The notes below the pieces were generated by a model. It saw only the letters and a program-made list of their open reading frames with translations. It had not been told where the DNA came from and ran no database searches. A DNA stretch of 44,146 bases from a virus (Duplodnaviria; Heunggongvirae; Uroviricota; Caudoviricetes): IMG/VR virus record IMGVR_UViG_2698536573_000002. One strand, 5' to 3'. Of the stretch, positions 15,865 to 43,379 are shown in pieces. The first letter of the stretch is position 1; the number at the start of each line of letters is the position of its first letter. The position numbers were made by a program, and so were the translations under genes.

Positions 15865-16100
15865 AAATCTCTTATCACCACTCGTTTAATTCGTGGGCCT
15901 CGGCGTATACCTGCTGATAATCTTTCTACTTCATTACGCCAGTAATCCATCTCTTTTCTGACTTCTGATAAATCCGCACGAGTTAACTGCCGCGTACCAA
16001 ATTTATATGACTGACCGCCAATAGCAATAGCACGATATGCTTCCCGCCAGACAGATAACATCTCTCTGGCTTCAGTCAGAGAAAATGCTTCATTGTTCAT
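15861..16100 (-). CDS. head-tail joining protein W
   Basis: 79 aa small ORF between terminase large subunit and portal, as lambda W. Confidence 0.65.
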   Translation of the reverse strand: MNNEAFSLTEAREMLSVWREAYRAIAIGGQSYKFGTRQLTRADLSEVRKEMDYWRNEVERLSAGIRRGPRIKRVVIRDL

Positions 16101-16111
16101 TTATATTTCCT

Positions 16112-17968: not shown

Positions 17969-17973
17969 GAGGT

Positions 17974-18534
17974 TTATTCTTCCTGCTTAATAAATCGGGA
18001 TTCCTGGAGCGCCTGAAGCGCAAAATTAATCTCGTCTTCAATAATGCGTTCGATCTCCCTGGCTGTTTTGCCTTCACAACGGGGAGCTGCTCTTGGAGCA
18101 ATACTAAATAAGCGGCTACGCAATTCATTAGCTGCCAGAAATGCATCATCCCTGACCGTATCTTTAGCGATGAGAGAGCCTTCCTTTTCTTCAAATTCAA
18201 GGCGTTTCAGCTTTGCCTGATAAATTTTTTCTGCGGTCTTAGCCTTGTTGAATTGCACCGCAACACCGGAAGTACCACCAGCTAATCCGGCATCATCAGC
18301 GGGTAACTCTGGTTGTTCCGAAGATATCCCATGCCCTCTTTTTCCATTTTCAGCAGATACCTCACGACCAACCTGTCGACTCGCTTCATAAGCCGTACTG
18401 GCTTTATCAAAATCCAGCTTGCCGCTTTTCAGCACTGGAATGCGACCGGAACGACAGAGCTTCGTAACCATTGCCGGAGAAATACCTTTCCGGCGGGCAA
18501 ACTCTGACTTACTGACGATGGCCATTACTTGCAA
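17974..18534 (-). CDS. terminase small subunit (putative)
   Basis: 186 aa with N-terminal HTH-like segment immediately upstream of large subunit. Confidence 0.5.
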   Translation of the reverse strand: MQVMAIVSKSEFARRKGISPAMVTKLCRSGRIPVLKSGKLDFDKASTAYEASRQVGREVSAENGKRGHGISSEQPELPADDAGLAGGTSGVAVQFNKAKTAEKIYQAKLKRLEFEEKEGSLIAKDTVRDDAFLAANELRSRLFSIAPRAAPRCEGKTAREIERIIEDEINFALQALQESRFIKQEE

Positions 18535-19115
18535 CCATTAGCAAGATACTGAACAAATCCCTCATGCGTTTCATGCGCATCGTGGTACTGACGATAAACA
18601 TCCAGCAACAATGCAATTTCCATATCCGTCGCGGGAATACGTTCTTTATCAATAGCCAGGTACTTAATTTGAACAACAGGGGAAGAATTATCGTCTTCTT
18701 CCTGCGGCTGTTCATCGCTTAACATTTCGTCAAGCTCTGCATCATTAAACCCAAGCAGATCAATATCAAAATCATCATCCATTAACTCTTTGACTTCTTC
18801 GGCCAGAAGCTGCATATCCCAGCCAGCATTTAAGGCCAGCTTGTTATCTGCAATCCTGTACGCCTTCTTCTGTTTTTCAGAAAGGTTACTCAACCGAATC
18901 GCCGGAACTTTATCCATTTCCAGAATTTCGGCTGCTGCAAGCCGCCCATGCCCCGCAATCAGTTCATTCTTTTCATCGATCAGCACAGGATTAGTGAAAC
19001 CGAACTCACGGATACTGTTCACCAACTGTTCAACTTGCTCATCTGAATGAGTCCGTGAATTTTTGGCATATCTGAGCAGCTTACCGACTGGTAAATATTC
19101 GATTTTTAGAGCCAT
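18525..19115 (-). CDS. ParB-like nuclease domain protein
   Basis: 196 aa; ParB N-domain motif ...ELIAGHGRLAAA...; paralog of 21782-22405. Confidence 0.7.
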   Translation of the reverse strand: MALKIEYLPVGKLLRYAKNSRTHSDEQVEQLVNSIREFGFTNPVLIDEKNELIAGHGRLAAAEILEMDKVPAIRLSNLSEKQKKAYRIADNKLALNAGWDMQLLAEEVKELMDDDFDIDLLGFNDAELDEMLSDEQPQEEDDNSSPVVQIKYLAIDKERIPATDMEIALLLDVYRQYHDAHETHEGFVQYLANGCK

Positions 19116-19672
19116 TTTTTAACCGCCATAACACAACAGGTTAAAGAAAACTGTTTAACTTATTGATACTAAAAGAGAAAAATGACGATCTTTTTACTCA
19201 TAAAAAATCACACAAACCAGCATAATTATCTGATTTTATTAAGTTTTTATAAGTAAAAAGGATCTTGCGATGGTGTTTTGGTTAAAAGATCGGATGTATT
19301 TGCATGATTTATAACGATTTTTATCAGAACAACATCACATTGGTTAAAGATCTGCGCGTATCTTGATGATCTAAAAGAAAATTTCCTACTTTCTTTTTAC
19401 CAGCACAAATACAGCAAAAAATCACGTTTTCCCGATATTTTTCAATGAGATGAGTAAATTTCTTTTACCGCAACTTTTAACCTAACTTTTTTCACGTTTA
19501 GCTAGCCGAACATCGGGGTTCGAATGACCCGCATCCAACGCTTTTGGCCAGAAGGACCCAATTCTGCCGGACGATGAAACGATGCTCGTGCCCACCCACA
19601 GACAGCCAGCGAGCAACGCTACAGAACACAGTGAATACACCCTGCATAACAACACCATCAACCACACGATGA

Positions 19673-20392
19673 TTAACGAGAGAACGTCTTAGAAAGAATG
19701 TCATCAATAGCCTTTGTGACTTCATCAGCAAACGCATTCTCACCAGCACGCAGCGCCACGCCATGCCAATCAAGACGCTGCGAATAGTTAGGTTGCTGGA
19801 TAAACGTAAGGATCAACGTAGGACGCCGCCCAACGCGCTGCCAGACGCCTGGTTGAAGCGGGTTACTTGTACCAGGTCGAACAACAAAAAACTCCGTAGG
19901 CTTGCCCTGACGGCGATTTTGATGCGCATCTCGCTGAACTCTTAGGCCAGATAAGACCTGCTGTAATTGCCCCCGCGAAATATTCCCGTATTTGTCCAGC
20001 TTTGCGCCGGGACCAGGAGCAAGCTGCCAGCCGTTAGGCAAATATCCACCAGCCCTTAGCGCCCCTTCTGAGCGTTTGTACTGTCGTTGGCCACCTTCGA
20101 TTTGCGGAGTCAACGTTACAGGGGCTGGCGTTCCTCCCCATTCACGAGCATACACAATGGCTGTAGGATCACTCTTCTTTGCGGCCAAAACGTAAGTAGA
20201 GTTCTGAATCCACGGCGTGGGCCTGTCAAATACCCGATTAATTTCATTCTTAATCGCAGCCTGAGAAGCCTTTGCCGTTCTGGTTGCCGCAAGCGCCATT
20301 GCGAACGGCAATTCGCGTTCTTCAAGGCGCTGGAGTTGTCGTTGAATATCCTGAGAAGAAAAATCCATCTTTATCTCAATTCTGTCAGCCAC
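19673..20392 (-). CDS. hypothetical protein
   Basis: 239 aa ORF, Gly/Pro/Gln-rich; no family recognised. Confidence 0.3.
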   Translation of the reverse strand: MADRIEIKMDFSSQDIQRQLQRLEERELPFAMALAATRTAKASQAAIKNEINRVFDRPTPWIQNSTYVLAAKKSDPTAIVYAREWGGTPAPVTLTPQIEGGQRQYKRSEGALRAGGYLPNGWQLAPGPGAKLDKYGNISRGQLQQVLSGLRVQRDAHQNRRQGKPTEFFVVRPGTSNPLQPGVWQRVGRRPTLILTFIQQPNYSQRLDWHGVALRAGENAFADEVTKAIDDILSKTFSR

Positions 20393-20408
20393 CAGCGCCT
20401 CCTACACA

Positions 20409-21788
20409 CTACTTAATCAACGGCCGGAAAGCCGTCAGCACATCATCAGATCGTCCGATTGTTGAACCACCAGGCAACGGCAACTCAAACTCAAAACGAA
20501 CAGCTTTCTCCAGACTCTCCCAGCGAAGAGAATCATCGTTAATAACGTGCAAATACCAGCTCTTACAGTTGAATATTGACCGCTTAATCCTGAAACCATG
20601 TACACGACACAACTGCTTCACTTCATCATCAGAGTGGAACTTCTGGTAAAACCAGTGCCCCTTCCGGTACAACGCGGTAAAACCGTTATGATCAATAAAA
20701 TAAAGCCGGCTTTTGGAACTCGCCGCTTGTGTTTGCTTCAGGACTGTTTCCAGCTCTCCACGGCTACGACCAGAAAAGAATATTGACCCACCAGCTTTAC
20801 ACAGGCCTTTCAGAACCGTCAGAACGGACCATTCAGCCTCGACACTATCGACCGAGTTCAAAACGCTATCGCAAATCACGTAGTCGTAACGCCCTCGCGT
20901 TTTTAAGTCGTCCACCAGCGTATCAATCATCCGGTTTGTTGCGGTCCTATCCAGAGTGTTTCCAGCGCCCTTACGGCGGAAAAGCTCGAGATCATGCAGG
21001 TTATATCCCTTTGCCCTGAGCATTCGCGCGTAGTCTCCCTGCCCCGAACCAAAATCAATTCCTCTTGGCGTCTTGGCAATGATCGGGAGGATCAACGACT
21101 CATACAGGTTTGATTTCAGGCTGCCACCATTACGCAACCGCATAAGCTGCGCATACGTCTGGATGTATGTTGTTTTCTCCAGATGAGAATACTCAAATAC
21201 ACCATAAGTTTTATTCAGATAACTTTGGTATTTTTCCTTCTCAACATCAGGGATCACAAACACCGTTAGCGGTGTGCGCGTCATCTTCGCTGCTAATGCA
21301 TACTGAGCACAGTGAATAACCTCGCCAGACTGAGTAGCAACACAACCACCCCACGGACCATACTTGATAACCAGTTCCGCTATGTTCTTTCGAACATATG
21401 CCATTTTCGCGCGCATATTGCCTGAGATCTGGCTTGCCGATACCTGAACAAAACCATGCTTATCTTCCAGACCGGACACCCTGCAACGCTCATCTCCGCT
21501 ATCAAAATCCGTTCCGTTATGCAGTTGGTTAAACCGTACTTCGTCGTATACCGTCGTTTCACAGGGCAACACATACACCGCAGCACGCGTTATTCCCAAC
21601 TTACGTAGCGCCTTCGTCCTTTGGTGTCCCGCCACCAGCAAATCGCCGCGCACTATCAATGGCTTCACAAGCCCCAGCTCCCTGACGCTTTCCGCTAGCC
21701 TCGCAAGATCATCCTCACCGATAAAACGCGGGTTATATTCCGCGCCGCGTAGGTGCGTTATGTCGTAATTGAGGTGAAGCATCAGCAC
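20409..21788 (-). CDS. ParB-like nuclease domain fused to SAM-dependent methyltransferase domain
   Basis: 459 aa; N-terminal ParB motif (LVAGHQRTKA), C-terminal class I MTase motif I (IDFGSGQGDYARML) and DYVICDSVL; no DPPY-type motif. Confidence 0.6.
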   Translation of the reverse strand: MLMLHLNYDITHLRGAEYNPRFIGEDDLARLAESVRELGLVKPLIVRGDLLVAGHQRTKALRKLGITRAAVYVLPCETTVYDEVRFNQLHNGTDFDSGDERCRVSGLEDKHGFVQVSASQISGNMRAKMAYVRKNIAELVIKYGPWGGCVATQSGEVIHCAQYALAAKMTRTPLTVFVIPDVEKEKYQSYLNKTYGVFEYSHLEKTTYIQTYAQLMRLRNGGSLKSNLYESLILPIIAKTPRGIDFGSGQGDYARMLRAKGYNLHDLELFRRKGAGNTLDRTATNRMIDTLVDDLKTRGRYDYVICDSVLNSVDSVEAEWSVLTVLKGLCKAGGSIFFSGRSRGELETVLKQTQAASSKSRLYFIDHNGFTALYRKGHWFYQKFHSDDEVKQLCRVHGFRIKRSIFNCKSWYLHVINDDSLRWESLEKAVRFEFELPLPGGSTIGRSDDVLTAFRPLIK

Positions 21789-22405
21789 ACCTCCCCAGCC
21801 AGCAATGCGGATACAAATCCGATATAGCTGCCATTATCATCAACATAACGAGACACCGCGCAGTCAAAACGATCCGCTTCCTCATCCGTTGCCGGGATTT
21901 TATGACCTCCAAATGACAGGTACTGAACTTTTACGCCTGATTTGGCCTCATCCTTCTCAAATGGGATATCCATACCCTCTGTGTCATCGTAGACCGCCGC
22001 ACTCAATAAGTTATCCAGTTCGCGCTGAGTAAAACCAATTGAGTCCAGAGCAAAATCATCGGCCGCAAGATCTGCAAGCTCCGCGCTTAACAACTCTTCA
22101 TCCCAACCAGCATTCAGCGGAATACGGTTGTCGGCCAGACGATATGCCTTCTTCTGATTCTCCGTTAGCCCAGCCAGAACAATGCAGGGAACATCATCCA
22201 TCCCCAACTGAGTGGCCGCAGCAATTCGACCATGACCAGCAATTACAACGTTGTTCTCGTCTATCAGGATCGGATTAGTCCATCCGTACTCCTGTATGCT
22301 GGCAATAATCTGATCTACCTGCTCCACGGAGTGTGTGCGAGCGTTCTTTTCATAACCAATCAACACAGAAAGTGGTAAAGAAACCACATTAAGATGTTTT
22401 GTCAT
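21782..22405 (-). CDS. ParB-like nuclease domain protein
   Basis: 207 aa; ...VIAGHGRIAAA... and QKKAYRLADN shared with 18525-19115. Confidence 0.7.
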   Translation of the reverse strand: MTKHLNVVSLPLSVLIGYEKNARTHSVEQVDQIIASIQEYGWTNPILIDENNVVIAGHGRIAAATQLGMDDVPCIVLAGLTENQKKAYRLADNRIPLNAGWDEELLSAELADLAADDFALDSIGFTQRELDNLLSAAVYDDTEGMDIPFEKDEAKSGVKVQYLSFGGHKIPATDEEADRFDCAVSRYVDDNGSYIGFVSALLAGEVC

Positions 22406-22875
22406 GCCGTTTATCCGCTAAAATCCCCTCGCTTGTGCAAGCAAGTGGGCCTCGGTTTGTATCCACGGCACCCTGTGGGTATGAATGACTGTCGTCAGGT
22501 CGCAACTGACGGCGGTCGCCCACCTTCCAGTAATAAAAAAGCCACCAGCATTAACTCCACAGCGAGCTGGAGTTAATGAGGCAGCTTTGGTTTGCGCATT
22601 ATCGCAGCCCCTGGTAAGCACAAGAGCTGCTGTAATGCGTTACGCAGGGATCAAACGGATGCGGCCGTTATTTACCTCAATACGAGAGTATTCCGGCTTA
22701 CCATCAACGATTCCAGTAATGACAAGTTCGCCATCAGACGAGCATTCTTCTTTGTCGTCTTCATATAGCTAAGACAAACCTCAAAGATAACGAGGTATCT
22801 TTCGCTTTTCTCCAGACGTAAGCGCCAGCCAGAAATACCAACAAATCTCTTATTGGAAGCGGAAACCAGAACAAA

Positions 22876-23175
22876 TCACTCGGCATAAGCACGATCATCT
22901 TCCGCTGCTGATTTACACGCCGCAGTTACTGATATATTGATAACCGGTGCGCTAATCGTGATGGACGACTCTGTCGGTTGACGCGATATAACTGAACGAT
23001 GGTTATCAATGAAGTCCACAATCTCATTCAGGCATTCTTTAGCTGCCTCATCGTGACTTTTTCCGTATGCTTCACGGAGGACTTTCATCCTCATCATTGC
23101 TCCGTCACATATAGTCGAAAGCGCGTAAAGCACATCACTAACCGCCATTTCTTTTTTGGTGCTTGTCGAAGGCAT
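22876..23175 (-). CDS. hypothetical protein
   Basis: 99 aa ORF in operon downstream of repeat copy 1. Confidence 0.3.
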   Translation of the reverse strand: MPSTSTKKEMAVSDVLYALSTICDGAMMRMKVLREAYGKSHDEAAKECLNEIVDFIDNHRSVISRQPTESSITISAPVINISVTAACKSAAEDDRAYAE

Positions 23176-23249
23176 CCCATGTTCTCCTTTGTCTGGATGT
23201 AAAAAAGCCCCGGCAATTGCCGAGGCTCGTTGTTCGTTATCGTTACGGT

Positions 23250-23450
23250 TTAATGCTCGCGTCGTCCGGCGACAACTTCGGATTTGTATTTCAGGTCGCC
23301 CAGCAAGAATTGCAGTTTAAGCATCTTTGCCGCCGTGTAGTTCCCTGATTCCACAACCTCTTTCATGAGGTCATAAACGGCCGCTACATCATCAGCCAGG
23401 AACTCTTTGCGTTGCTGCTCAGTCGCACGTTTGAAGGAAATACGCATCAC
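23250..23450 (-). CDS. hypothetical protein
   Basis: 66 aa ORF overlapping upstream gene stop. Confidence 0.3.
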   Translation of the reverse strand: MMRISFKRATEQQRKEFLADDVAAVYDLMKEVVESGNYTAAKMLKLQFLLGDLKYKSEVVAGRREH

Positions 23451-23716
23451 TCATCATCTCCTGCCGCACATACAACCTCACAAAAAAAATCAGCAGAATG
23501 TTTCTCCTTGAACGAATGACGCTCAAAACCGCACTCAATATCAGGCGCAAAAACATCCACCACATACGGTCTTTCAGAATGTTTGTTTTCCCAACGATAA
23601 ACCGTAGTGACGTTGAAATGTTTTAACGCTTCACGGAACTCAACGCTGCCCGTCAGGTTTTTTGAGGTCAGGTATTGCAGGAGGTTTTTTACTACTTCAC
23701 GGTCTTGTACTTTCAT
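23447..23716 (-). CDS. hypothetical protein, first gene after repeat copy 1
   Basis: 89 aa; ATG at 23716 is the last triplet of the conserved repeat, RBS GGAGA inside repeat. Confidence 0.4.
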   Translation of the reverse strand: MKVQDREVVKNLLQYLTSKNLTGSVEFREALKHFNVTTVYRWENKHSERPYVVDVFAPDIECGFERHSFKEKHSADFFCEVVCAAGDDE

Positions 23717-23825
23717 CAGATTTCTCCGGTTTAACCAGGGCGGGTATCGCTCGGTTTCGGGTATAACCTTAGGAAATTTTTTCCCACCTGTAAAGCACTT
23801 TTTATATAAATCTATAATTATATAA
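23717..23825 (-). repeat. ~109-bp promoter-bearing repeat, copy 1
   Basis: Near-identical to 29974-30082 and 40078-40187; contains TTTACA-17bp-TAAGGT, 5' leader and RBS. Confidence 0.85.
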
Positions 23826-23827
23826 TT

Positions 23828-24415
23828 TTATGCCACTTGCCAGAGAGCATCATGCAACTGGATACCTCCATTGCACTGGTTGCCCCAGCCATGCCAACCA
23901 TCAGGTAAATCACCGCGAGCAAACAGCTCAATACGAGGAACATCACCTAACAGCCTTACCAGCTTGTCACGAACCACATCAGGCTTCCGAGAATGCTCCA
24001 GACGAGGCGATGTAAACGACTGAATGATCCCCGCATCAAGGCGGGTCGGCAATTTGCCTTTTACCGCAAACAAGCAATCTTCACTGTTTGCACGAGTCAT
24101 ATGCCCCATCCCCATCACCAGCTTATCTGGTTGTCGGCTACCACATTTGTTCCATGTGAAGCCCTTCATGGTCATAAGCCTGAATCCCCATGCTTTCACC
24201 ACCAGCAACGCTTCTTCTGGCTGAGTCGGAACCCACCACATGGCCAACAAACACGATTCAGGATTAGCAAGCTGCCAGACAGGAATACGAGCAATATCCT
24301 CAGCTTTCATCGTTGGATACTTAAAACCAGCTCCACGATTCCCATCCTTACACTTATCTTTGTATTCCCAGGGGGGATCTGCATAAATCAGATTAAACAA
24401 TGCAATTGCCTCCAT
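23828..24415 (-). CDS. MT-A70 family DNA N6-adenine methyltransferase
   Basis: 195 aa starting ...LIYADPPWEY (DPPW catalytic motif near N-terminus). Confidence 0.75.
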   Translation of the reverse strand: MEAIALFNLIYADPPWEYKDKCKDGNRGAGFKYPTMKAEDIARIPVWQLANPESCLLAMWWVPTQPEEALLVVKAWGFRLMTMKGFTWNKCGSRQPDKLVMGMGHMTRANSEDCLFAVKGKLPTRLDAGIIQSFTSPRLEHSRKPDVVRDKLVRLLGDVPRIELFARGDLPDGWHGWGNQCNGGIQLHDALWQVA

Positions 24416-30524: not shown

Positions 30525-30857
30525 TCAGATCTCCCGTATCGTGACGGGATAAAGCGCCTCTACCTGCTTTTTCTTCATGATGTAGACGTCTGTTCGCACA
30601 CCTTTAGTGTCGACACAATCAATCGTCCCATCGTCATAAAACACCATGAAATCAAGTTTATAAACGACACCACCTGGCAGATGAAAAGGCACCTGCATAA
30701 GAAACGTCACAACGCGGCCAGCTTTTCTCAGTAGCTTCAGTTCGCAGTAGTAATCAGCCTCTTTTTTGCTATCAAAAGCGATATCATCGACAACCGTTTT
30801 TTTATTGCCGTATTTGCTTTTTCTGGTCGCTGGTTTGCGAAAGCCGGTATATCTCAT
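30525..30857 (-). CDS. DUF1064-family phage protein
   Basis: 110 aa with YGNKKTVVDDIAFDSKKEADYYCELKLL motif. Confidence 0.55.
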   Translation of the reverse strand: MRYTGFRKPATRKSKYGNKKTVVDDIAFDSKKEADYYCELKLLRKAGRVVTFLMQVPFHLPGGVVYKLDFMVFYDDGTIDCVDTKGVRTDVYIMKKKQVEALYPVTIREI

Positions 30858-31261
30858 TTGGTATCCCCTGGTACTTCACCAAGACTAAGATCAAACCCAA
30901 TTTCGTCTTTAACTGACTGCGGCAACAGCTCCCACGTCTGCGCACACAAAAATTCATCGGTGCCATAACGCTCAACAAAGCGAGCACAATTACTCAGGGG
31001 AGGGTGACGAACGGCAATATGCGGAGGCACACGCCCACCACCAGGCACAACACCGCGATGATGTGGTGCGCACAACCCAAAGCTATGGAAGTGGCAATTC
31101 TCATCAACGCTGCCGTAATCAGGATCGTGATGCAGCTCCGTCCACAGCTCTGGATTATCAATTTCACGGCCATCAATAATGCAAGCTATGCAACCCACGT
31201 GAGTGAGCACCGCTTGTATATAAAGTTTCTCTTTCTTCGTTGGTGTACGTCCGTTCATCAA
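30854..31261 (-). CDS. Cys/His-rich putative zinc-binding protein (possible HNH-like nuclease)
   Basis: 135 aa; GCIACII ... ELHHDPDYG ... NCHFHSFGLCAPHHRG. Confidence 0.3.
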   Translation of the reverse strand: MMNGRTPTKKEKLYIQAVLTHVGCIACIIDGREIDNPELWTELHHDPDYGSVDENCHFHSFGLCAPHHRGVVPGGGRVPPHIAVRHPPLSNCARFVERYGTDEFLCAQTWELLPQSVKDEIGFDLSLGEVPGDTK

Positions 31262-31491: not shown

Positions 31492-32003
31492 TGATGGCCC
31501 CCGTCATTCCAGGTGCTTTTCACCGTGCGGCTGCTTAAAAACCTGCCATCACGAGAAACAGACACATCTCGTTTACCCAACCTCATTTCACGGCGGTAAC
31601 ATTCAGAAAATGCCTCGTCCGGCAGCATATAAATGCGACGCTTCGCCTCCGAATCCAGAAGGGAACGGCTTGGAGTTACATATAAAAACGACTCATCAAT
31701 AGGGACAAAACCACGAGCAAGAATTGCTGGCAGAATGCCAGGAAGAACGCAGAAAACAGCTCCACGATGCAGCAACATCTGGTACTCCATGACCTCCGTT
31801 ATCCCCGTGACGACTGTTACGGTGTCACGTCTGTTACGGCTGGCAACCAGTCGCTGCACACGTCCAATTTTCTGCTCTACAGATAGACGTTTACTATCGT
31901 TATCAATATGATCGATAACAAATCCTTTAATCGTTTGATCAAGGTAGTGCACCACCTGCGATTGAATCTGGTGATTATCACCAAAGAAGGCCAGAATCAT
32001 CAT
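31488..32003 (-). CDS. hypothetical protein
   Basis: 171 aa ORF in early operon. Confidence 0.3.
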   Translation of the reverse strand: MMILAFFGDNHQIQSQVVHYLDQTIKGFVIDHIDNDSKRLSVEQKIGRVQRLVASRNRRDTVTVVTGITEVMEYQMLLHRGAVFCVLPGILPAILARGFVPIDESFLYVTPSRSLLDSEAKRRIYMLPDEAFSECYRREMRLGKRDVSVSRDGRFLSSRTVKSTWNDGGHQ

Positions 32004-32494
32004 TCCTCAAGCCTCCCAAGTGCTGAACGCCGGGCGTTGCTAATCTCCTTATGAATCAGCTCGATATCGCTGGAATCTTTATTCTTAAACTCCAGCACGG
32101 CAATCGCATCACGAACCTCTGAAACGGTTACGTGTGAGTGTTTCCAGCGAGCAATGAATCGCGGACCGCGTAGATTGCAACGCTCCGCAGGTATCCCCAG
32201 CTCAGAGAAAACCGCTTTCAGCCTTGATAAGCAGTTAACAGGGAGATTCCCTTTGATCTTGTTCTGCCGAACCGATGTGCCATCGCTACGCTGGCGCTGA
32301 CGTTCGGCAAAATCTGCCGCCCATTGCTGGACATTAATCCGGCCTTCCGAATACGCCACCAGCAGCGTCAGGTTATCCGCACGAGGGAATCTCTCGAAGC
32401 GATACCAGGCACCAATCAGTGATGACGTAAAGCCAAACTTTCTGGCAACACCAATTTGGCCTCCATTTTCATCAACCCACTCCTGAAAGGTCAT
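32000..32494 (-). CDS. HTH DNA-binding protein, first gene of leftward-reading early operon (Cro/CII-like role)
   Basis: 164 aa; N-terminal HTH-like GQIGVARKFGFTSSLIGAWYRF; divergent from CI-like repressor across operator region. Confidence 0.4.
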   Translation of the reverse strand: MTFQEWVDENGGQIGVARKFGFTSSLIGAWYRFERFPRADNLTLLVAYSEGRINVQQWAADFAERQRQRSDGTSVRQNKIKGNLPVNCLSRLKAVFSELGIPAERCNLRGPRFIARWKHSHVTVSEVRDAIAVLEFKNKDSSDIELIHKEISNARRSALGRLEE

Positions 32495-32512
32495 TTAACT
32501 AACTCCAGTTAA

Positions 32513-32629
32513 ACCACGATATGTGGTATTAAAACCACAAATCGTGAGTTTTTCAATGGGAAAACAAAAAATAACCTTCTATTTGTGGTCTACCTCTCGT
32601 CTTGCCGTGTGAAAACCACTAAATGTGGT
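32513..32629. promoter_or_regulatory. immunity-region operators, consensus ACCAC-N5-GTGGT
   Basis: accacgatatgtggt 32513-32527, accacaaatcgtgag 32534-32548 (imperfect), half-site gtggt 32585-32589, accactaaatgtggt 32615-32629, between divergent regulator genes. Confidence 0.6.
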
Positions 32630-32666
32630 AATGTATAAATAACCCCCCATTCACGATTGATGAGAA

Positions 32667-33329
32667 ATGAAAAGCAACGACGAGAACATCAAGAAAGAAA
32701 TAGGTCTGCGCATTCAGACTCTACGGAAACAATCCGGCATGACTGCCGGAGATCTCCAGCAAGTCACTGGAATAGGCTTAAGCACCTTGCAGAACTATGA
32801 GGCCGGATTAAGACAACCATCTATACCTGCCATCAAGAAAATCGCGCACGCCCTGAAAGCATCAGCGCCTTATATCGCGTGCTTAACAGATAACCCGTTC
32901 CCACCCCAGAATACTAACGCTCCTGTTATTCCTGGGCTTGTAGCTATAAAAAATGACATAGCATCGCACGCCGGAGAAAAGCCAGTGCTGGCGATAGAAC
33001 AGGAGATTCTACGAAGCAAGAACATCAACCCATCGTCTCTGTCTGTTCTCCAGAGCAACGATGAGCTAAAGCTAATGTCACCAACAATATCCCCTGGCTC
33101 CCAAGTCCTGATTAATACAGACGATACAGAGATTCATGAGGGGATCTATGCCCTTGAAGACAGAAATGGCCTGGTTGTTTTGAGGCACTGTAGAGTCATA
33201 CCGGGTGACAATGCTGTTATGCTGTCAACCGAAAGGGATGCTGAAATGAACACTAAGCATCTGAATAACGAGGAATTTAAGCGTTATAAAGTTCTTGGCC
33301 GCGTAGTTAGTGTTGTCAACTGGTTATGA
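32667..33329 (+). CDS. CI-like prophage repressor (XRE-type HTH with LexA/S24-like C-terminal domain)
   Basis: 220 aa; N-terminal HTH (LRKQSGMTAGDLQQVTGIGLSTLQNYEAG), C-terminal domain with Ser/Lys candidates (LMSPT ... KVLGRVV). Confidence 0.65.
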   Translation: MKSNDENIKKEIGLRIQTLRKQSGMTAGDLQQVTGIGLSTLQNYEAGLRQPSIPAIKKIAHALKASAPYIACLTDNPFPPQNTNAPVIPGLVAIKNDIASHAGEKPVLAIEQEILRSKNINPSSLSVLQSNDELKLMSPTISPGSQVLINTDDTEIHEGIYALEDRNGLVVLRHCRVIPGDNAVMLSTERDAEMNTKHLNNEEFKRYKVLGRVVSVVNWL

Positions 33330-33371
33330 TACACAGCACGGCGAAAGCCGTGCATTTCTACGCTCAAAAAA

Positions 33372-33386
33372 ACCACGCTTTGTGGT
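33372..33386. promoter_or_regulatory. additional ACCAC-N5-GTGGT operator downstream of repressor gene
   Basis: accacgctttgtggt, perfect half-sites. Confidence 0.5.
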
Positions 33387-33421
33387 TTTGACAACATGAA
33401 AAAGTATAAAAGAGGCTACGC

Positions 33422-33796
33422 ATGGAATTACATACAGCCAATAAAAACGAAACTCTGATCACTGCTGGAATCGAAATCCAAGCGTTGAACATAGCGATTG
33501 AGTGTATGTTATGCCAACTCATTGATAATGAGAAAGATATCGACTGGATAGAATCTATCCTTCATCTGGCATCAGAACAAAAAGTCTGCCTCAAAACGGC
33601 CTTACAATACGATGTGCCAGCGATATCGAAGCTGTGCCAGCCATTGATGGCATATAACAGGGCTATTATTTCTGTATGCCTCATGATTCTCGATGAAAAC
33701 ACCCCTCTTAGCGACCGCTCAGAAGCTGCTCTAACCCTCTCACGTAAACAGCGACAGCTAGCAAATCAACTGATATCAACGATAGCTGACCTCTGA
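33422..33796 (+). CDS. hypothetical protein adjacent to repressor gene
   Basis: 124 aa, RBS AAGAGG 7 nt upstream; followed by hairpin at ~33802-33819. Confidence 0.4.
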   Translation: MELHTANKNETLITAGIEIQALNIAIECMLCQLIDNEKDIDWIESILHLASEQKVCLKTALQYDVPAISKLCQPLMAYNRAIISVCLMILDENTPLSDRSEAALTLSRKQRQLANQLISTIADL

Positions 33797-35112: not shown

Positions 35113-35136
35113 ATAAAAAAGGCCCCCGAAGGGGCC
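35113..35136 (-). terminator. intrinsic terminator (minus-strand orientation)
   Basis: ggcccc-cgaa-ggggcc hairpin followed by U6 on minus strand, directly after small ORF 35143-35265. Confidence 0.5.
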
Positions 35137-35142
35137 TAATCG

Positions 35143-35265
35143 CTACTTGCTGCTAATGTTTATCGTCACATTCAGAGCGTTATCAGTAATCTTCCAACCC
35201 TCTCCATGTGGCGTAAACAAAGCCCCAGTAACAACGATAAAAATACACATGTAGTATTTTTTCAT
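35143..35265 (-). CDS. small hydrophobic peptide (40 aa)
   Basis: MKKYYMCIFIVVTGALFTPHGEGWKITDNALNVTINISSK; RBS AAGGG; own terminator. Confidence 0.35.
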   Translation of the reverse strand: MKKYYMCIFIVVTGALFTPHGEGWKITDNALNVTINISSK

Positions 35266-35655
35266 TGTGTGGCCCTTACAGGCCGTTTCACGGCATCCCC
35301 ACCGACGAAAATGACGCGAGAGCAAGCACGCTGTTTGTGCCTGCGTGGTACGGCAAGTGGATAATCCTTTCCTGAAAGTCAGTGCCCGGGTGCGAATCGG
35401 CGGAAAGGCCCCAAGCCATATTACACGTCATACCCTTCATAATGAAGGAATAAAAAACGCTTTTATTACATGAGATTACACGTAAATAAGTTAAAAACCT
35501 TCATTTTGCATGAGCTAATGAGCTAAATTTTTTTATATGAATAGTGGACTATTCACCTCAGTTAGGTAAGAATGTAGTTGCTGTTTGTGCTTGCGTGGTT
35601 GTATTAGTACAACGACGTTATGCTGAAAGGACCGCGAATCCGATCAGCACGAAAG

Positions 35656-35695: not shown

Positions 35696-36235
35696 TTAAA
35701 ACAGTCCAAGACCTGTTAATGGCTTCTGATAATCTCGATTATTCATATCAGCGCCGTTATCGACCCAATTTCTATATGCTTCATCGCAACAATACATTAC
35801 AGCAGTTGGAGTATCTGGGATGCCGCCCCCAAATGAGAATCCCATTGAGCTAATGCTAACTCTTTCTAATGGCCTATTTCTCAATGCTTCAAACCCCTTG
35901 CTATTAAAGTAACGCAGCATCAGAGGTAAAAGGTTATCCTCGTCCTGACTGATTGTTCCAGGGAAAAAGTAGTAACCATAACGGTTAAATTCGGGAATAA
36001 GATTTTCTACCAATGACATGAAATTCACTGGAGTAATATTAAGGGCTGTGAAAGCACCAAAAAGGGCGTCAACTGTTAATACAGACTGCCCGTTCTCTAT
36101 CTTTGTCCATGCGTTTGGTGTTTTTCCAGCAGCTTGAGCCAGTACTCCTTGATGCACACCTCTTTCTAGCCTAAGTTCTTTTATGATCATTAGGTGAATT
36201 GTTGAAAAACATGAGTTTTTTGACTGTTCAATCAT
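35696..36235 (-). CDS. XRE-type HTH protein with uncharacterised C-terminal domain
   Basis: 179 aa; HTH IKELRLERGVHQGVLAQAAGKTPNAWTKIENGQ; RBS GGGGA. Confidence 0.45.
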   Translation of the reverse strand: MIEQSKNSCFSTIHLMIIKELRLERGVHQGVLAQAAGKTPNAWTKIENGQSVLTVDALFGAFTALNITPVNFMSLVENLIPEFNRYGYYFFPGTISQDEDNLLPLMLRYFNSKGFEALRNRPLERVSISSMGFSFGGGIPDTPTAVMYCCDEAYRNWVDNGADMNNRDYQKPLTGLGLF

Positions 36236-36372: not shown

Positions 36373-36387
36373 CCCACACTATGTGGT
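36373..36387. promoter_or_regulatory. ACCAC-N5-GTGGT-like operator upstream of antirepressor operon
   Basis: cccacactatgtggt (9/10 half-site match). Confidence 0.45.
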
Positions 36388-36419
36388 TGTCTCTGTTAAA
36401 ATCCCGCCGTATTGACATA

Positions 36420-36521
36420 AATGCGCCATTGGTGGACACTTTCCGAGCCGTAGCAAAATCTACGGTCGGGATTGGAACCCCGATAATCATCATGGCGCAT
36501 ACCGCGTTAGCGGTTTTTTTA
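36420..36521 (+). ncRNA. candidate small regulatory RNA (c4-like) upstream of antirepressor operon
   Basis: TTGACA at 36412-36417; terminator accgc-gtta-gcggt + T7 at 36501-36520; short elements complementary to leader near 36603-36634. Confidence 0.3.
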
Positions 36522-36685
36522 TGCGTAAAGCACTGCTACACCCAAATTATGGTGGGGCGTGCGGGGGAGTCGTAAGACTCGCCGGATTCCATGGTGACCG
36601 GTAGTTCCAACCCTGTACGTCTCACCACCCAATGATTGGAACCAGACGGTGGTGAGTATCCTTAACCTTTAAGGGAACTATCACC

Positions 36686-36877
36686 ATGACAAACCTACCC
36701 CATGACTATTACGTCAACCTCGTAAAGATCCTTCTCAAGAAAGCCTCATACGCCGATAAATTCCGCCTGGCTGAAATCATCGAGCGCGAAGCTATGCGCA
36801 TCGCCAGCAACGATAACGCTGTTTCTGTCGCAAAAATCTCCCTCGTAACCAAAGTAGTTATGGGAGGTGCAAAATGA
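36686..36877 (+). CDS. small leader protein translationally coupled to antirepressor (icd-like position)
   Basis: 63 aa; stop TGA overlaps ant ATG (ATGA); RBS AAGGGA. Confidence 0.45.
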   Translation: MTNLPHDYYVNLVKILLKKASYADKFRLAEIIEREAMRIASNDNAVSVAKISLVTKVVMGGAK

Positions 36878-38055
36878 AAACGCTTCCGACCGTTAACACC
36901 CTACAGCCTATCCTGCATAACCAGCTCCCCGTTATCACTACTGAACTACTGGCGCAATTGTATGGAACCGAGCGCCAACGTCTGACAAACAATTTCAATA
37001 GAAACAAGGAACGTTTTATAGAAGGTAAACACTTTTTTAGGATAGAAGGTAAAGAGTTACGAGAGTTGAAGAACAAAAACTCTTTAAGAGTTCCTGTGAG
37101 AGTAGTTAACGAACCATCTTTAAGAGGGTTACAAATTCCCCCGAAAGTTCGCTCCCTCATCCTCTGGACAGAACGCGGGGCTGCACGTCACGCCAAAATG
37201 CTTGAAACTAACCAAGCGTGGGATGTGTTCGAACGGCTGGAAGACAGCTACTTCAACCAGAACGCACAAACGGCCGCGACCGTAACCGTCTCACCAAACA
37301 ATGCTCGTGAGGTTGTCGATACGCTCAACGCCAAACCAATGTATTACGTTAAGGTGTGCAACAACGAGCCACTCACAACCTCAGCCGATGTAGCCCAGGC
37401 ATTCAGCACCACAAACAATTCCATCGTTATGGCCATCGATGCATTACGCATTCCTCGCACAGCTGCGGCACGTCATTTCTTTAAAGAGCAACGACCGCTG
37501 GAAGGAAGCGACCGCGAAATAACAATCTATCGCATGACAAAAGACGGATTTACCTTGCTCATGGAAAGTATCGACGGTCCAGGCGTGAAGGATATCAAGC
37601 TGGCCTACATTGAAGCCTTTAACGCTATCAGCAGCGTGTTAAAGGCAGAATACGAGCGAATGCTATACAACCGACTGTATCAGGAAACAAAGATTATCCG
37701 AACGGCAACAGAACATCATCGGCTATTAACGGAACCAAACTACCGCAAGACACTAATCAAAGAGTTTGACAAGGCGACGGAGAAAACTAAAGCGGCACTA
37801 AATCTACCAACAATGACTAAAGATGATGTGATATCAGCCTTACTTCTTGATCTGCTCAGAAACGTCAGAGCACTTATCAGTTTTGACGAAAACCTGAATC
37901 CTCAGCTCAAGCTACTACCACCGACAGGCAAAGTAGTCGACCAAGCAGATCACAACAGCATACTCAGCGTACTGGATGCAAACCTGCCAGCCAGGACACT
38001 ACAGGAGCTGATAAAAATATCTGCGGATAAACTGGCCGCAGGTGCAAAACCATAA
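36874..38055 (+). CDS. antirepressor (ORF6N/KilA-N-like N-terminal domain plus Rha-like domain)
   Basis: 393 aa; N-terminal LPVITTELLAQLYGTERQRLTNNFNRNKERF and central MYYVKV...TIYRMTKDGFTLLM blocks. Confidence 0.6.
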   Translation: MKTLPTVNTLQPILHNQLPVITTELLAQLYGTERQRLTNNFNRNKERFIEGKHFFRIEGKELRELKNKNSLRVPVRVVNEPSLRGLQIPPKVRSLILWTERGAARHAKMLETNQAWDVFERLEDSYFNQNAQTAATVTVSPNNAREVVDTLNAKPMYYVKVCNNEPLTTSADVAQAFSTTNNSIVMAIDALRIPRTAAARHFFKEQRPLEGSDREITIYRMTKDGFTLLMESIDGPGVKDIKLAYIEAFNAISSVLKAEYERMLYNRLYQETKIIRTATEHHRLLTEPNYRKTLIKEFDKATEKTKAALNLPTMTKDDVISALLLDLLRNVRALISFDENLNPQLKLLPPTGKVVDQADHNSILSVLDANLPARTLQELIKISADKLAAGAKP

Positions 38056-42349: not shown

Positions 42350-43198
42350 TTAATGTTGGAGTGATTTCCAGGTCTTTCTTAGCCTGTTATAACGCTGCTC
42401 AACGAGGGATCGTAAATATGCAAGGTCAGCACCTGGATACATGCCATCAGCAAATTCCTGGCTAACCTCTCTAGTGATTTGATGACGAAGTTCGGCCTCT
42501 CCCTTTTCCCGGACAAGACGCGCAGCTCTCTCCGCTGCTTTCTGTTTTGCCTTTATCTCTCTGGCCGTCTTCCTCTGGCGCCATACATTCTCCATCTGCT
42601 CCTGAATAACAATACGCTTATAATCAGCCTCCGTTATCGCTTTTTTAAGCCGTTCGCTATTCTTCGCATTGAAGTAATTAAGTTTCTGGCTAACCGCACG
42701 TCTCCATGCTTGTTCAGTAATACCAACGGTTTCCAGCAGTTGATCACGAATCTCTATTTTCGCTGGCCAATACTGTTTATTCACCCGATCCCAGCGACGT
42801 TCATAATCAATAAAACCTAACGCTTTCAGTTGCGACAACGCCCTTGTACAGCGCGTTATAGACTTGTTCCCAGCTTCGGATACGGTAGACAGGCCGCAAA
42901 AATCAGCCAACGCCTCAGCACTAGCCAGAACCCGCTTAGAAATGATGTTTACATGGTGCAAAATCGCAGCGATCACAGCATTAATCGCCCGACGACGATG
43001 CTCGTTTATCCGGCGCTTCCGCTCTGACGGTTGATTAACGTAGAACGCAACCTCACACGTAAGATCACGCCCATTAATGCGCTGTAAAGCATCAGATAAC
43101 ACCAGCGGCAGCTTGTGCGTATGGTGCTTTGGAGGCTGGAACTCCGGCGACAAATTACAAACGTAAGCTGAACGTAGAGACGGCATTGGTCTATCCAT
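42350..43198 (-). CDS. repA: replication initiation protein, IncFII RepA1 family
   Basis: Contains KSITRCTRALSQLKALGFIDY block resembling R100/R1 RepA1 as I recall it; ORF open to 43327, internal ATG at 43198 gives ~283 aa; upstream part is leader targeted by antisense RNA. Confidence 0.7.
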   Translation of the reverse strand: MDRPMPSLRSAYVCNLSPEFQPPKHHTHKLPLVLSDALQRINGRDLTCEVAFYVNQPSERKRRINEHRRRAINAVIAAILHHVNIISKRVLASAEALADFCGLSTVSEAGNKSITRCTRALSQLKALGFIDYERRWDRVNKQYWPAKIEIRDQLLETVGITEQAWRRAVSQKLNYFNAKNSERLKKAITEADYKRIVIQEQMENVWRQRKTAREIKAKQKAAERAARLVREKGEAELRHQITREVSQEFADGMYPGADLAYLRSLVEQRYNRLRKTWKSLQH

Positions 43199-43242
43199 AT
43201 GTTCGCTCTTGCGTCCACGGAAAACCAACGTATAATGGGAGT

Positions 43243-43320
43243 TGTCGAGGCGCCCATGGTTAGTTGTTGGTTTTCCGTGGATGTCGCAAGAAGCCCGCAG
43301 ATTTATCTGCGGGCTTTTTG
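43243..43320 (+). ncRNA. antisense RNA to repA leader (CopA/RNAI-like)
   Basis: Plus-strand promoter TTGCGT-16bp-TATAAT (43209-43236); terminator gcccgcag-atttat-ctgcgggc + T-run at 43293-43323; fully within repA leader. Confidence 0.55.
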
Positions 43321-43362: not shown

Positions 43363-43379
43363 AACCACGTTACGTGGTT
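43363..43379. promoter_or_regulatory. ACCAC-N5-GTGGT palindrome in repA promoter region
   Basis: aaccacgttacgtggtt, perfect, ~36 bp upstream of repA leader ORF start. Confidence 0.5.

What the first reader, a model, noticed from the sequence alone, without database searches (positions are those of the whole stretch)
32495..32666. Immunity switch: divergent regulator genes separated by ACCAC-N5-GTGGT operators
The CI-like repressor (32667-33329) and the first gene of the early operon (32494 downward) flank a 172-bp region with two perfect and one imperfect ACCAC-N5-GTGGT palindromes plus a half-site, like lambda OR. The repressor C-terminal domain has a diverged Ser motif (LMSPT instead of GDSM), so SOS cleavability is uncertain.
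Basis: partly seen in the sequence, partly recalled or inferred. Interest (0 to 1): 0.45.

Follow-up and report, generated by a model that had tools for sequence, protein, structure and literature searches.

The report
Phage-plasmid immunity switch, non-cleavable repressor
This is the lysis/lysogeny control region of a common ~48-kb E. coli phage-plasmid: a lambda-CI-like repressor that has lost its self-cleaving residues sits next to conserved 15-bp operators, and the same operator also lies upstream of the plasmid replication gene and of an anti-repressor operon. It is a well-supported but fairly ordinary member of the N15/lambda kind.

Summary
The 172-bp gap between the divergent genes (32495-32666) contains two perfect ACCAC-N5-GTGGT palindromes (32513, 32615), one imperfect palindrome (32534) and a degenerate fourth site (GTGGT at 32585). 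Four perfect copies occur in the window against 0.02 expected. In relatives whose repressors are only 60-66% identical, the half-sites are almost invariant while the 5-bp centres drift.

The interpretation as an immunity switch is largely supported. The 220-aa protein has an HTH_3 N-terminal domain and a LexA/CI-type C-terminal fold. Its C-terminal domain is not merely "diverged". The catalytic Ser is Leu136, the catalytic Lys is Arg173, and the Ala-Gly cleavage loop is deleted. The Ser of "LMSPT" is Ala in most homologues. RecA-driven self-cleavage is therefore very unlikely.

A P1/N15-type anti-repressor module (isrK and C4 RNAs, a small ORF, a 393-aa Ant) lies 3 kb away, and I found no LexA box.

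The same operator recurs at three more places: after the repressor's terminator (33372), upstream of the anti-repressor operon (36373) and upstream of IncFII repA (43364).

Weak points: the promoter assignments are manual, and the 164-aa "first early gene" has no detectable Cro-like domain. The closest analogue is N15/phiKO2 CB. I rate it a new member of a known kind, of modest interest.

The parts
32667..33329 (+). Prophage repressor gene (220 aa). N-terminal HTH_3 domain, linker, then a C-terminal LexA/CI-type (S24-like) fold that lacks the Ser/Lys dyad and the Ala-Gly cleavage loop.
   Evidence: Pfam HTH_3 E 4.6e-11. PHROG 4 repressor E 3e-23 over residues 4-219. AF2 pLDDT 92. Foldseek hits to 186 CI, LexA and lambda CI. 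hhalign 99.65% to canonical S24 C-terminal domains, with Ser->Leu136 and Lys->Arg173.
32513..32527 (.). Operator O1, a perfect ACCAC-N5-GTGGT. It lies immediately downstream of the putative -10 of the leftward early promoter and covers the expected transcription start.
   Evidence: Present at the same position in all seven relatives compared (perfect or one mismatch), always 21 bp centre-to-centre from O2.
32534..32548 (.). Operator O2, imperfect (ACCACAAATCGTGAG). It fills the spacer between the putative -35 and -10 of the leftward promoter.
   Evidence: In every relative the right arm is also off-consensus (GTGGG), so this is a conserved weaker site.
32528..32556 (-). Putative early (leftward) promoter: -35 TTGAAA (32556-32551), 17-bp spacer, -10 TTTAAT (32533-32528).
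   Evidence: Manual reading checked. The -35 is conserved in 6 of 7 relatives. The consensus scan found no canonical promoter in the gap, because the -10 lacks A at position 2. This is inference only.
32572..32589 (.). Degenerate fourth site: invariant GTGGT right arm at 32585-32589, non-consensus left arm.
   Evidence: Repeat family D1, 72% identical in register to O1. GTGGT is invariant and the left block is 91% conserved across relatives.
32615..32629 (.). Operator O3, perfect. It lies 37 bp upstream of the repressor start codon, between a weak -35-like TGAAAA and the -10-like TATAAA (32634-32639). Probable site of negative autoregulation.
   Evidence: The half-sites are 100% invariant in all seven sequences. 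The promoter assignment is manual and not well conserved.
32000..32494 (-). First gene of the leftward early operon (164 aa, PHROG 7452, unknown function). Candidate lytic-side regulator.
   Evidence: No HTH or any other family or structure match. GGAG ribosome-binding site 9 nt upstream of the ATG.
33336..33359 (+). Intrinsic terminator of the repressor gene (GCACGGC-GAAA-GCCGTGC plus a T-rich tail).
   Evidence: RNA fold -15 kcal/mol. The stem is invariant while the loop varies across relatives.
33372..33386 (.). Operator O_T, perfect, with symmetric A/T flanks (AAAACCAC-N5-GTGGTTTT). It lies about 13 bp past the terminator tail and 36 bp before the 124-aa gene and par operon.
   Evidence: Conserved at the same position in all relatives. 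Its function is not resolved.
36373..36387 (.). Operator-like site O_ant (CCCACACTATGTGGT, one mismatch). It ends 24 bp upstream of the -35 TTGACA (36412-36417) of the anti-repressor operon.
   Evidence: Positionally conserved in the Yersinia phage and in three diverged relatives, where it reads ACCACAATGCGTGAT in two and ACCACAATGTGTGAT in the third.
36447..36632 (+). isrK-like RNA (36447-36520) and C4 antisense RNA (36545-36632).
   Evidence: Rfam gathering-threshold hits at 70 and 84 bits. The same pair occurs in relatives.
36686..38055 (+). 63-aa ORF in the position of P1 icd (36686-36877), overlapping the start of a 393-aa anti-repressor (36874-38055; ORF6N + Phage_pRha domains).
   Evidence: Multiple PHROG anti-repressor families, E down to 2e-59.
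43364..43378 (.). Operator O_rep, perfect (ACCACGTTACGTGGT). It lies about 180 bp upstream of IncFII-type repA, between two -10-like elements on the repA strand (TGgTAGAGT and TATGAT).
   Evidence: Conserved in the Yersinia phage and in Salmonella plasmid NZ_LN890526, where the repressor is 65% identical.
42350..43186 (-). repA (IncFII RepA family). Its leader carries a likely antisense-RNA unit on the plus strand: TTGCGT-N16-TATAAT around 43206-43236, and a terminator at about 43292-43320.
   Evidence: Pfam IncFII_repA E 1e-43. Start at Met48 by analogy with the RefSeq annotation of L010. The antisense unit was read from the sequence and is inference.

Best explanation
The region is the primary immunity switch of a circular ~48-kb enterobacterial phage-plasmid.

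Proposed mechanism:
1. The 220-aa CI-like repressor binds as a dimer to 15-17-bp operators of consensus (A)ACCAC-N5-GTGGT(T). This has the same geometry as a lambda operator.
2. O1 and O2 are 21 bp (two helical turns) apart. They bracket the -10 and fill the spacer of the leftward early promoter, so together they shut off the lytic operon.
3. O3 lies inside the weak rightward promoter of the repressor gene and gives negative autoregulation.
4. Further copies put three more targets under the same repressor: the promoter of IncFII-type repA (O_rep), the upstream region of the isrK/C4/small-ORF/ant operon (O_ant), and the exit of the repressor's own terminator (O_T).
5. The repressor's C-terminal domain keeps the LexA/CI fold, presumably for dimerisation and cooperativity, but has lost the Ser/Lys dyad and the cleavage loop. 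It therefore cannot be inactivated by RecA-stimulated self-cleavage.
6. Induction is proposed to go through the 393-aa anti-repressor, whose translation is held down by the C4 antisense RNA as in P1 immI and N15 immA.

Shown by tool results: the sites, their excess over chance, their conservation, the protein's domains and fold, the missing catalytic residues, and the RNA and Ant module.

Inferred only: which protein binds the sites, the promoter positions, repression of repA, and Ant acting on this repressor.
For: Excess over chance: 4 perfect sites against 0.02 expected, and 8 sites with at most one mismatch against 0.58 expected. Only the N5 spacing occurs.

Phylogenetic footprint across six relatives with 60-66% identical repressors: half-site columns are 93% invariant, the 5-bp centres 20%, and the rest of the gap 36%. 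O1-O2 spacing is fixed at 21 bp in all of them.

Repressor residues 34-49 (the turn and recognition helix) are invariant in all 13 family members, while the C-terminal domain is only 50-63% identical. This matches the invariant half-sites.

A Serratia phage-plasmid with a 33% identical repressor, in which the first two recognition-helix residues change from GL to PR, has a different half-site: AACCAC-N5-GAGGTT.

Domains and fold. Catalytic Ser->Leu136, Lys->Arg173 and the deleted cleavage loop. These residues are invariant in the family.

Ant module. It is conserved in relatives.

Extra operators are conserved at the same positions in diverged relatives: O_T, O_ant, O_rep.

Precedent: N15/phiKO2 CB lacks the Ser/Lys residues and the cleavage site. 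It binds three OR operators and two OL operators at repA and lowers copy number (PMC4997575). N15 induction uses anti-repressors and a small processed RNA (PMC4488713).
Against: No binding data exist, and sequence alone cannot tell whether the repressor, the 164-aa early protein or both bind the sites.

The consensus promoter scan found nothing in the gap. My leftward -10 (TTTAAT) lacks the normally critical A at position 2, and the rightward -10 is not conserved among relatives.

O_ant is centred about 67 bp upstream of the isrK 5' end. That is outside the core promoter, so repression there is not obvious.

O_T has no recognisable promoter next to it.

No LexA box was found, so the trigger for Ant expression is unknown.

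The covariation evidence rests on a single diverged relative.
Confidence: 0.72

Rival explanations
1. The palindromes are the binding sites of the 164-aa first early protein acting as a Cro-like lytic repressor. It would bind them either alone or shared with the CI-like protein, as in lambda.
For: The gene sits in the cro position. By eye its N-terminus (GGQIGVARKFGFTSSLIGAWYRF..RFP) resembles YdaS/Cro-type helix-turn-helix proteins. That resemblance is my reading only. In lambda both proteins use the same operators.
Against: No HTH or any other family or structure hit with Pfam, PHROGs, NCBIfam or PDB profiles. The residues at the start of its putative recognition helix vary among relatives while the half-sites do not, whereas the CI helix is invariant. 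In phiKO2 and PY54, Cro binds only one of the operators (PMC4997575).
Confidence: 0.25
2. The palindromes act as nucleic-acid hairpins (terminators or attenuators, or cruciforms) rather than as protein-binding sites. This applies most to the one after the repressor gene.
For: O_T is flanked by an A-run and a T-run and folds to about -8.5 to -8.9 kcal/mol on either strand. It follows the repressor's terminator.
Against: O1 and O3 form only 5-bp stems (-6 kcal/mol) without T-runs, and they sit in promoter-like positions. Across relatives the arms are invariant rather than changing in a compensatory way, and the loops drift. That is the signature of sequence-specific recognition. The same motif occurs in both transcription orientations and upstream of genes.
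Confidence: 0.05
3. The repressor is an SOS-cleavable lambda-CI-type protein with an unusual active site. This is the possibility the first reader left open.
For: It has the S24-like fold. There is an Ala-Gly dipeptide at residues 103-104 of this variant.
Against: Leu occupies the Ser position and Arg the Lys position, and both are invariant in the family. The Ala-Gly is not conserved (SG, TG, PG or PD in homologues), and the canonical cleavage loop is a 10-residue gap. A 2-residue insertion (LK) directly before the former Ser position is tolerated in many plasmids.
Confidence: 0.03
4. The clustering of the motif is a chance or compositional effect of an AT-rich intergenic region.
For: The gap is AT-rich (36% GC against 44% for the window).
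Against: Dinucleotide-preserving shuffles never reach the observed counts. The sites are conserved in position in relatives whose flanks have diverged.
Confidence: 0.01

Closest known systems
immB/immA immunity system of the linear phage-plasmids N15 and phiKO2 (CB repressor, OR1-3, OL1-2 at repA, antA-icd-antB with a small processed RNA, antC)
   Same: Divergent repressor and early genes with three operators between them. The repressor has an HTH domain and lacks the RecA cleavage site and the Ser/Lys residues. Extra operators upstream of the plasmid replication gene tie copy number to immunity. There is a separate anti-repressor locus with a C4-type RNA and a small ORF (PMC4997575, PMC4488713; this window).
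   Different: No sequence relationship was detected to anything outside the narrow repressor family: 13 clusters at 90% identity. The operators here are ACCAC-N5-GTGGT, not the 16-bp TA-N10-TA type. The replicon is circular and IncFII-like with an antisense RNA, not a protelomerase/RepA linear plasmid. The virion genes are of the contractile-tail (myovirus) type. No Q-like antiterminator, recognisable Cro or LexA-controlled antC was found.
Lambda OR/OL with CI and Cro
   Same: Divergent promoters. Three operators with an intrinsically weaker middle or outer site. The 6+5+6 operator geometry differs from the lambda consensus (T)ATCAC-N5-GTGAT(A) at one base per arm; the lambda consensus is from my own knowledge. 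The repressor has an HTH domain plus a LexA-like C-terminal fold.
   Different: The repressor here cannot self-cleave. O1-O2 spacing is 21 bp. O3 is about 81 bp away rather than adjacent. There are no N, cII or cIII homologues, and operators are scattered over 11 kb.
Coliphage 186 CI with the Tum anti-repressor
   Same: The best structural matches are 7jvt and 2fjr. 186 CI is a non-cleavable repressor inactivated by an anti-repressor and uses distal flanking sites (from my own knowledge).
   Different: Only 12-15% sequence identity. Whether this repressor forms a wheel-like oligomer is unknown. The 186 operators and switch layout (face-to-face promoters) are different. Tum is LexA-controlled, and no LexA box exists here.
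P1 immI (c4 - icd - ant) and P1's dispersed C1 operators
   Same: A C4 antisense RNA (Rfam RF01695, 84 bits) is followed by a small ORF overlapping a large anti-repressor gene. The repressor's operators are dispersed to replication and anti-immunity loci. A Ref-type nuclease is in the repressed operon.
   Different: The primary repressor is a CI/LexA-fold HTH protein with palindromic operators, not P1 C1 with asymmetric 17-bp operators. The genome is half the size of P1.

Membership tests
Self-cleaving LexA/CI repressors (peptidase family S24) | N-terminal DNA-binding domain joined to a C-terminal S24 beta-fold | tested here: met
   HTH_3 at E 4.6e-11. AF2 pLDDT 92. Foldseek hits to LexA and lambda CI C-terminal domains with TM 0.67-0.75. 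hhalign 99.65% to canonical S24 C-terminal domains. Pfam Peptidase_S24 is only sub-threshold, E 0.002-0.03.
Self-cleaving LexA/CI repressors (peptidase family S24) | Catalytic Ser-Lys dyad | tested here: not met
   Leu136 aligns with the catalytic Ser (LexA S119) and Arg173 with the catalytic Lys (K156). Both are invariant in all 13 family members.
Self-cleaving LexA/CI repressors (peptidase family S24) | Ala-Gly (or Cys-Gly) cleavage site in the loop preceding the catalytic core | tested here: not met
   There is a 10-residue gap opposite LexA G85 and the residues after it. Canonical hits carry [AS]AGxG there and this family does not. The AG at residues 103-104 is not conserved.
Non-cleavable prophage repressors inactivated by anti-repressors (N15 CB, 186 CI, Gifsy repressors) | The repressor lacks the autocleavage machinery and the element encodes an anti-repressor | tested here: met
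   The 393-aa ORF6N + Rha protein matches PHROG anti-repressor families at E down to 2e-59.
Non-cleavable prophage repressors inactivated by anti-repressors (N15 CB, 186 CI, Gifsy repressors) | The anti-repressor gene is under LexA (SOS) control | tested here: not met
   There is no LexA box near any regulatory gene. The only good CTGT-N8-ACAG is inside the tail genes at 11055. About 4 kb of the element lies outside the window.
Non-cleavable prophage repressors inactivated by anti-repressors (N15 CB, 186 CI, Gifsy repressors) | The anti-repressor physically binds and inactivates this repressor | not testable with these tools
   Needs pull-down or EMSA competition experiments.
Lambda-type bistable CI/Cro switch | Divergent promoters overlapped by multiple shared operators | tested here: inconclusive
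   The operators are present and conserved. The promoters were assigned by hand, and the consensus scan found none in the gap.
Lambda-type bistable CI/Cro switch | A Cro-type second repressor encoded as the first gene of the lytic operon | tested here: inconclusive
   The 164-aa product has no detectable HTH or any other family or structure match.
P1 immI / N15 immA anti-immunity operon | C4-type antisense RNA upstream of a small ORF that overlaps the ant gene | tested here: met
   RF01695 at 84 bits and RF01394 at 70 bits. The 63-aa ORF 36686-36877 overlaps ant at 36874. The same arrangement occurs in relatives.
N15-type control of plasmid replication by the prophage repressor | Repressor operator(s) overlapping the repA promoter | tested here: inconclusive
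   A perfect operator lies about 180 bp upstream of repA between two -10-like elements, and it is conserved in Salmonella and Yersinia relatives. The promoter and the binding are not demonstrated, and the Serratia relative lacks such a site.

The most novel reading that the evidence does not exclude
The repressor is more than a lysis/lysogeny switch. In this reading it is the single master regulator of the whole plasmid-prophage state. It replaces CopB at an IncFII-type repA promoter and so sets copy number. It also gates the anti-repressor operon. Through the operator placed one RNA-polymerase footprint beyond its own terminator (O_T, spacing conserved in all relatives), it would act as a roadblock that tunes read-through into the downstream 124-aa gene and partition operon. 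This last mechanism, repressor-assisted termination, has not been described for phage immunity regions as far as I know.
Probability: 0.15. Interest if true: 0.6.

Novelty: new member of a known kind. Interest (0 to 1): 0.33.

Why it matters
This phage-plasmid lineage is common. It occurs in 58 complete E. coli-group plasmids in PLSDB, including one in the reference strain ATCC 25922, and in three Yersinia pestis phages. Its proteins are almost all annotated as hypothetical.

The results give concrete, testable reagents:
- the immunity repressor;
- its operator consensus and six candidate sites;
- the prediction that induction does not depend on RecA-mediated cleavage of the repressor and is anti-repressor-driven;
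- the prediction that plasmid copy number is coupled to immunity through an operator at repA.

This would help explain how these cryptic "plasmids" are maintained and mobilised. Conceptually it repeats what is known from N15, phiKO2, P1 and 186.

Tried and rejected
1. The consensus promoter scan of 32300-33600 found no promoter in the gap. The promoters given here are manual and flagged as such.
2. phmmer and profile searches of the repressor C-terminal domain against PDB sequences found nothing. hhalign of the family profile against a single LexA sequence also failed. Only a profile of 101 canonical S24 domains gave the link.
3. The first AF2 run, with 13 close homologues, gave an unusable C-terminal domain (pLDDT 58). 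The run with 43 diverse sequences succeeded.
4. Word-indexed homologue searches with the full protein and with the C-terminal profile returned only the same 13 clusters.
5. The 164-aa early protein had no hit in Pfam at E<=10, PHROGs, NCBIfam, or PDB by sequence and by profile.
6. Two LexA-box searches were negative.
7. I considered that the element belongs to the pSLy3 phage-plasmid group. I rejected this because pSLy3 is SSU5-related.
8. A pair of weak sites at 22362 and 22383, also 21 bp apart, is not conserved in the Salmonella relative, so I treat it as chance.
9. No operator-like site was found upstream of repA in the Serratia relative.

Full report
**Where the window comes from.** The 2-kb stretch around the finding is 98-99.8% identical to 58 complete plasmids of about 47-50 kb, almost all from Escherichia. 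One of them is in E. coli ATCC 25922 (NZ_CP009073). It is also 98-99% identical to three Yersinia pestis phages, vB_YpM_39, 41 and 44, whose proteins are annotated almost entirely as hypothetical. The element carries the following:
- contractile-tail virion genes;
- a Hin-type invertase;
- an IncFII-family RepA;
- a short ParA with an 82-aa partner;
- a HigB/HigA-like pair.

It is therefore a circular phage-plasmid. It is not the SSU5-related pSLy3 group.

**The observation.** The gap between the ATG of the leftward 164-aa ORF (32494) and the ATG of the rightward 220-aa ORF (32667) is exactly 32495-32666. It holds four sites:
- ACCACGATATGTGGT at 32513 (O1);
- ACCACAAATCGTGAG at 32534 (O2, two mismatches);
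- ACCACTAAATGTGGT at 32615 (O3);
- a lone GTGGT at 32585, whose left arm is degenerate.

In the whole window there are 4 perfect copies against 0.02 expected, and 8 copies with at most one mismatch against 0.58 expected. No other spacing of these arms occurs.

**Conservation.** The repressor family is narrow, with 13 clusters at 90% identity. I fetched loci from Citrobacter, Klebsiella, Yokenella and Salmonella and from metagenomes, where the repressor is 60-66% identical. All of them have O1, O2, O3 and the half-site at the same positions.
- Half-site columns are 93% invariant, the 5-bp centres 20%, and the rest of the gap 36%.
- O1-O2 are always 21 bp centre-to-centre. O2-O3 are 81-83 bp apart.
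- O2 is off-consensus in every relative (GTGGG), so it is a conserved weaker site.

Arms that never change combined with drifting centres point to sequence-specific protein recognition and not to an RNA or DNA hairpin. The stems are also weak, at -6 kcal/mol.

**The repressor.**
- The N-terminal domain is HTH_3.
- The whole protein matches PHROG 4 "transcriptional repressor", and the C-terminal half matches PHROG 6201 "CI-like repressor".
- Residues 34-49 (TGIGLSTLQNYEAGLR) are invariant in all family members, while the C-terminal domain is only 50-63% identical. This matches the invariant half-sites.
- A Serratia phage-plasmid has the same module order but a 33% identical repressor in which the first two recognition-helix residues change from GL to PR. 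Its main operator has AACCAC-N5-GAGGTT arms. This is one case of apparent co-variation, suggestive only.

**The C-terminal domain.**
- Pfam Peptidase_S24 is only sub-threshold.
- A search of 1.8 billion representatives with the C-terminal profile found 537 relatives, most of which are canonical S24 repressors.
- With those sequences in the alignment, AlphaFold gave a confident model (pLDDT 92).
- The best PDB matches of that model are the lambda-186 hybrid and 186 CI repressors, LexA, and lambda CI.
- Profile-profile alignment of the family C-terminal domain against 101 canonical domains plus E. coli LexA gives 99.65% probability.
- That alignment places Leu136 at the catalytic Ser, Arg173 at the catalytic Lys, and a 10-residue gap where the Ala-Gly loop should be.
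- In an hmmsearch alignment of 165 sequences, 119 have Ser at that column. The family and a minority of other repressors have Leu, Ala or Val.
- Leu136 and Arg173 are invariant in the family.
- This window's allele carries a two-residue LK insertion, a 6-bp duplication, directly before the former Ser position. Many plasmids share the insertion and others lack it.

Self-cleavage is therefore very unlikely. The domain probably survives for dimerisation and cooperativity.

**How induction may work.** Three kb to the right, Rfam finds an isrK-like RNA (36447-36520) and a C4 antisense RNA (36545-36632) at gathering threshold. They are followed by a 63-aa ORF that overlaps the start of a 393-aa ORF6N + Rha anti-repressor. 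This is the P1 immI / N15 immA design, and it recurs in the relatives. A perfect -35 TTGACA (36412-36417) sits 29 bp (17-bp spacer, -10-like GACACT, 5 nt) before the isrK 5' end. No LexA box is present at any regulatory position, so the upstream signal is unknown. A 179-aa HTH protein (35696-36235) is divergent from this operon in the E. coli lineage.

**Operators outside the gap.**
- O_T (33372, perfect, with symmetric A/T flanks) lies about 13 bp after the T-tail of the repressor's terminator and 36 bp before the 124-aa gene that precedes parA. It is present at the same place in every relative. I could not find a conserved promoter next to it.
- O_ant (36373, one mismatch) ends 24 bp upstream of the TTGACA. 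Relatives have ACCACAATG[C/T]GTGAT in the same alignment columns. At about -67 it is outside the core promoter.
- O_rep (43364, perfect) lies about 180 bp upstream of repA. On the repA strand it sits between TGgTAGAGT, an extended -10-like element, and TATGAT. It is upstream of what looks like a CopA-style antisense unit with a strong terminator. The site and both -10-like elements are conserved in the Salmonella plasmid and in the Yersinia phage.

**Promoters (inference).** On the minus strand, TTGAAA (32556-32551), a 17-bp spacer and TTTAAT (32533-32528) place O2 in the spacer and O1 over the start site. The -35 is conserved in 6 of 7 sequences. The -10 lacks the usual A at position 2, and the tool's scan reported nothing in the gap. 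For the repressor gene the best match is TGAAAA-N18-TATAAA, with O3 in the spacer. It is weak and not well conserved.

**The other gene.** The 164-aa product is conserved at 72-77% identity in relatives and 38% in Serratia. It has no family or structure match in any library tried. Its N-terminus looks to me like a YdaS/Cro-type helix-turn-helix, but that is unverified. "Switch" in the strict bistable sense is therefore not demonstrated.

**Comparison with known systems.**
- **N15/phiKO2.** This is the closest analogue in logic. The CB repressor lacks the RecA cleavage site and the Ser/Lys residues. [quoted passage not shown] N15 has a separate anti-immunity operon with a small processed RNA, plus an SOS-controlled antC (PMC4488713). 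The present element differs in its protein families, operator sequence, replicon (circular, IncFII-like), virion type, and the lack of a LexA-controlled anti-repressor.
- **Lambda.** The operator geometry equals lambda's 6+5+6 layout, with one base difference per arm. The lambda consensus is from my own knowledge.
- **Phage 186.** The best structural matches are to 186 CI.

**Verdict.** The "uncertain SOS cleavability" resolves to "almost certainly not cleavable, anti-repressor route likely". This is a new, experimentally uncharacterised member of a known kind of system. Interest is modest. The most interesting loose ends are the conserved post-terminator operator and the repA operator.

Noticed in passing
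window 35115-35413 (-): Full-length ryfA RNA (Rfam RF00126, 135 bits) lies between the par operon and the anti-repressor region. It is also present in the Yokenella and Salmonella relatives (L008, L009). It may be a type I toxin-antitoxin-like stabilisation element on the phage-plasmid.
   Followed up: partly
window 33066-33077 (repressor codons 134-137): This window's repressor allele carries a 6-bp tandem duplication (GCTAAA/GCTAAT) that adds Leu-Lys directly before the position of the lost catalytic Ser. Several PLSDB plasmids share it (100% protein identity) and others lack it (99.1% identity, 218 aa).
   Followed up: partly
window 43206-43320 (+), within the repA leader: This is a likely CopA-like antisense RNA unit opposite the repA leader: TTGCGT-N16-TATAAT, a long inverted repeat (GGAAAACCAAC...GTTGGTTTTCC), and a strong terminator (AAGCCCGCAGATTTATCTGCGGGCTTTTT). 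It is highly conserved in the Salmonella relative. Rfam CopA did not match.
   Followed up: partly
window 33422-33796 (+): A 124-aa ORF (PHROG 7632, no known domain) always sits between the repressor gene and parA, in all relatives including the distant Serratia plasmid. Its function is unknown.
   Followed up: no
window 35696-36235 (-): A second HTH_3 protein (179 aa, with a C-terminal half matching no known family) is divergent from the isrK/C4/ant operon. It is absent from several relatives, which carry other genes at that position. It may be the sensor or regulator of the anti-repressor operon.
   Followed up: no
window 22362-22397: Two weak operator-like sites (AACACAGAAAGTGGT and ACCACATTAAGATGT) lie 21 bp apart at the start of the ParB/Srx-domain gene. 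They are conserved in the Yersinia phage but not in the Salmonella relative, so they are probably chance.
   Followed up: partly
window 11055-11070: This is the only good LexA-box-like sequence in the window (CTGTTAGTATTAACAG). It lies inside the tail-gene cluster at a gene junction, not near any regulator.
   Followed up: no
window 30854-31261 (-) and 30525-30857 (-): A Ref-type RecA-dependent nuclease and a DUF1064 protein lie in the repressed leftward operon. This recalls P1, where ref is also under prophage-repressor control (from my own knowledge).
   Followed up: no
L011 (Serratia pJSRIV006_2, NZ_CP074139) 14832-24024: A lambda-like siphovirus phage-plasmid carries the same module as this myovirus-type element: repA, Rha/C4, par, the 125-aa gene, the repressor, then the divergent 164-aa gene and ref. 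The immunity and maintenance cassette therefore appears to move between unrelated virion backbones.
   Followed up: partly
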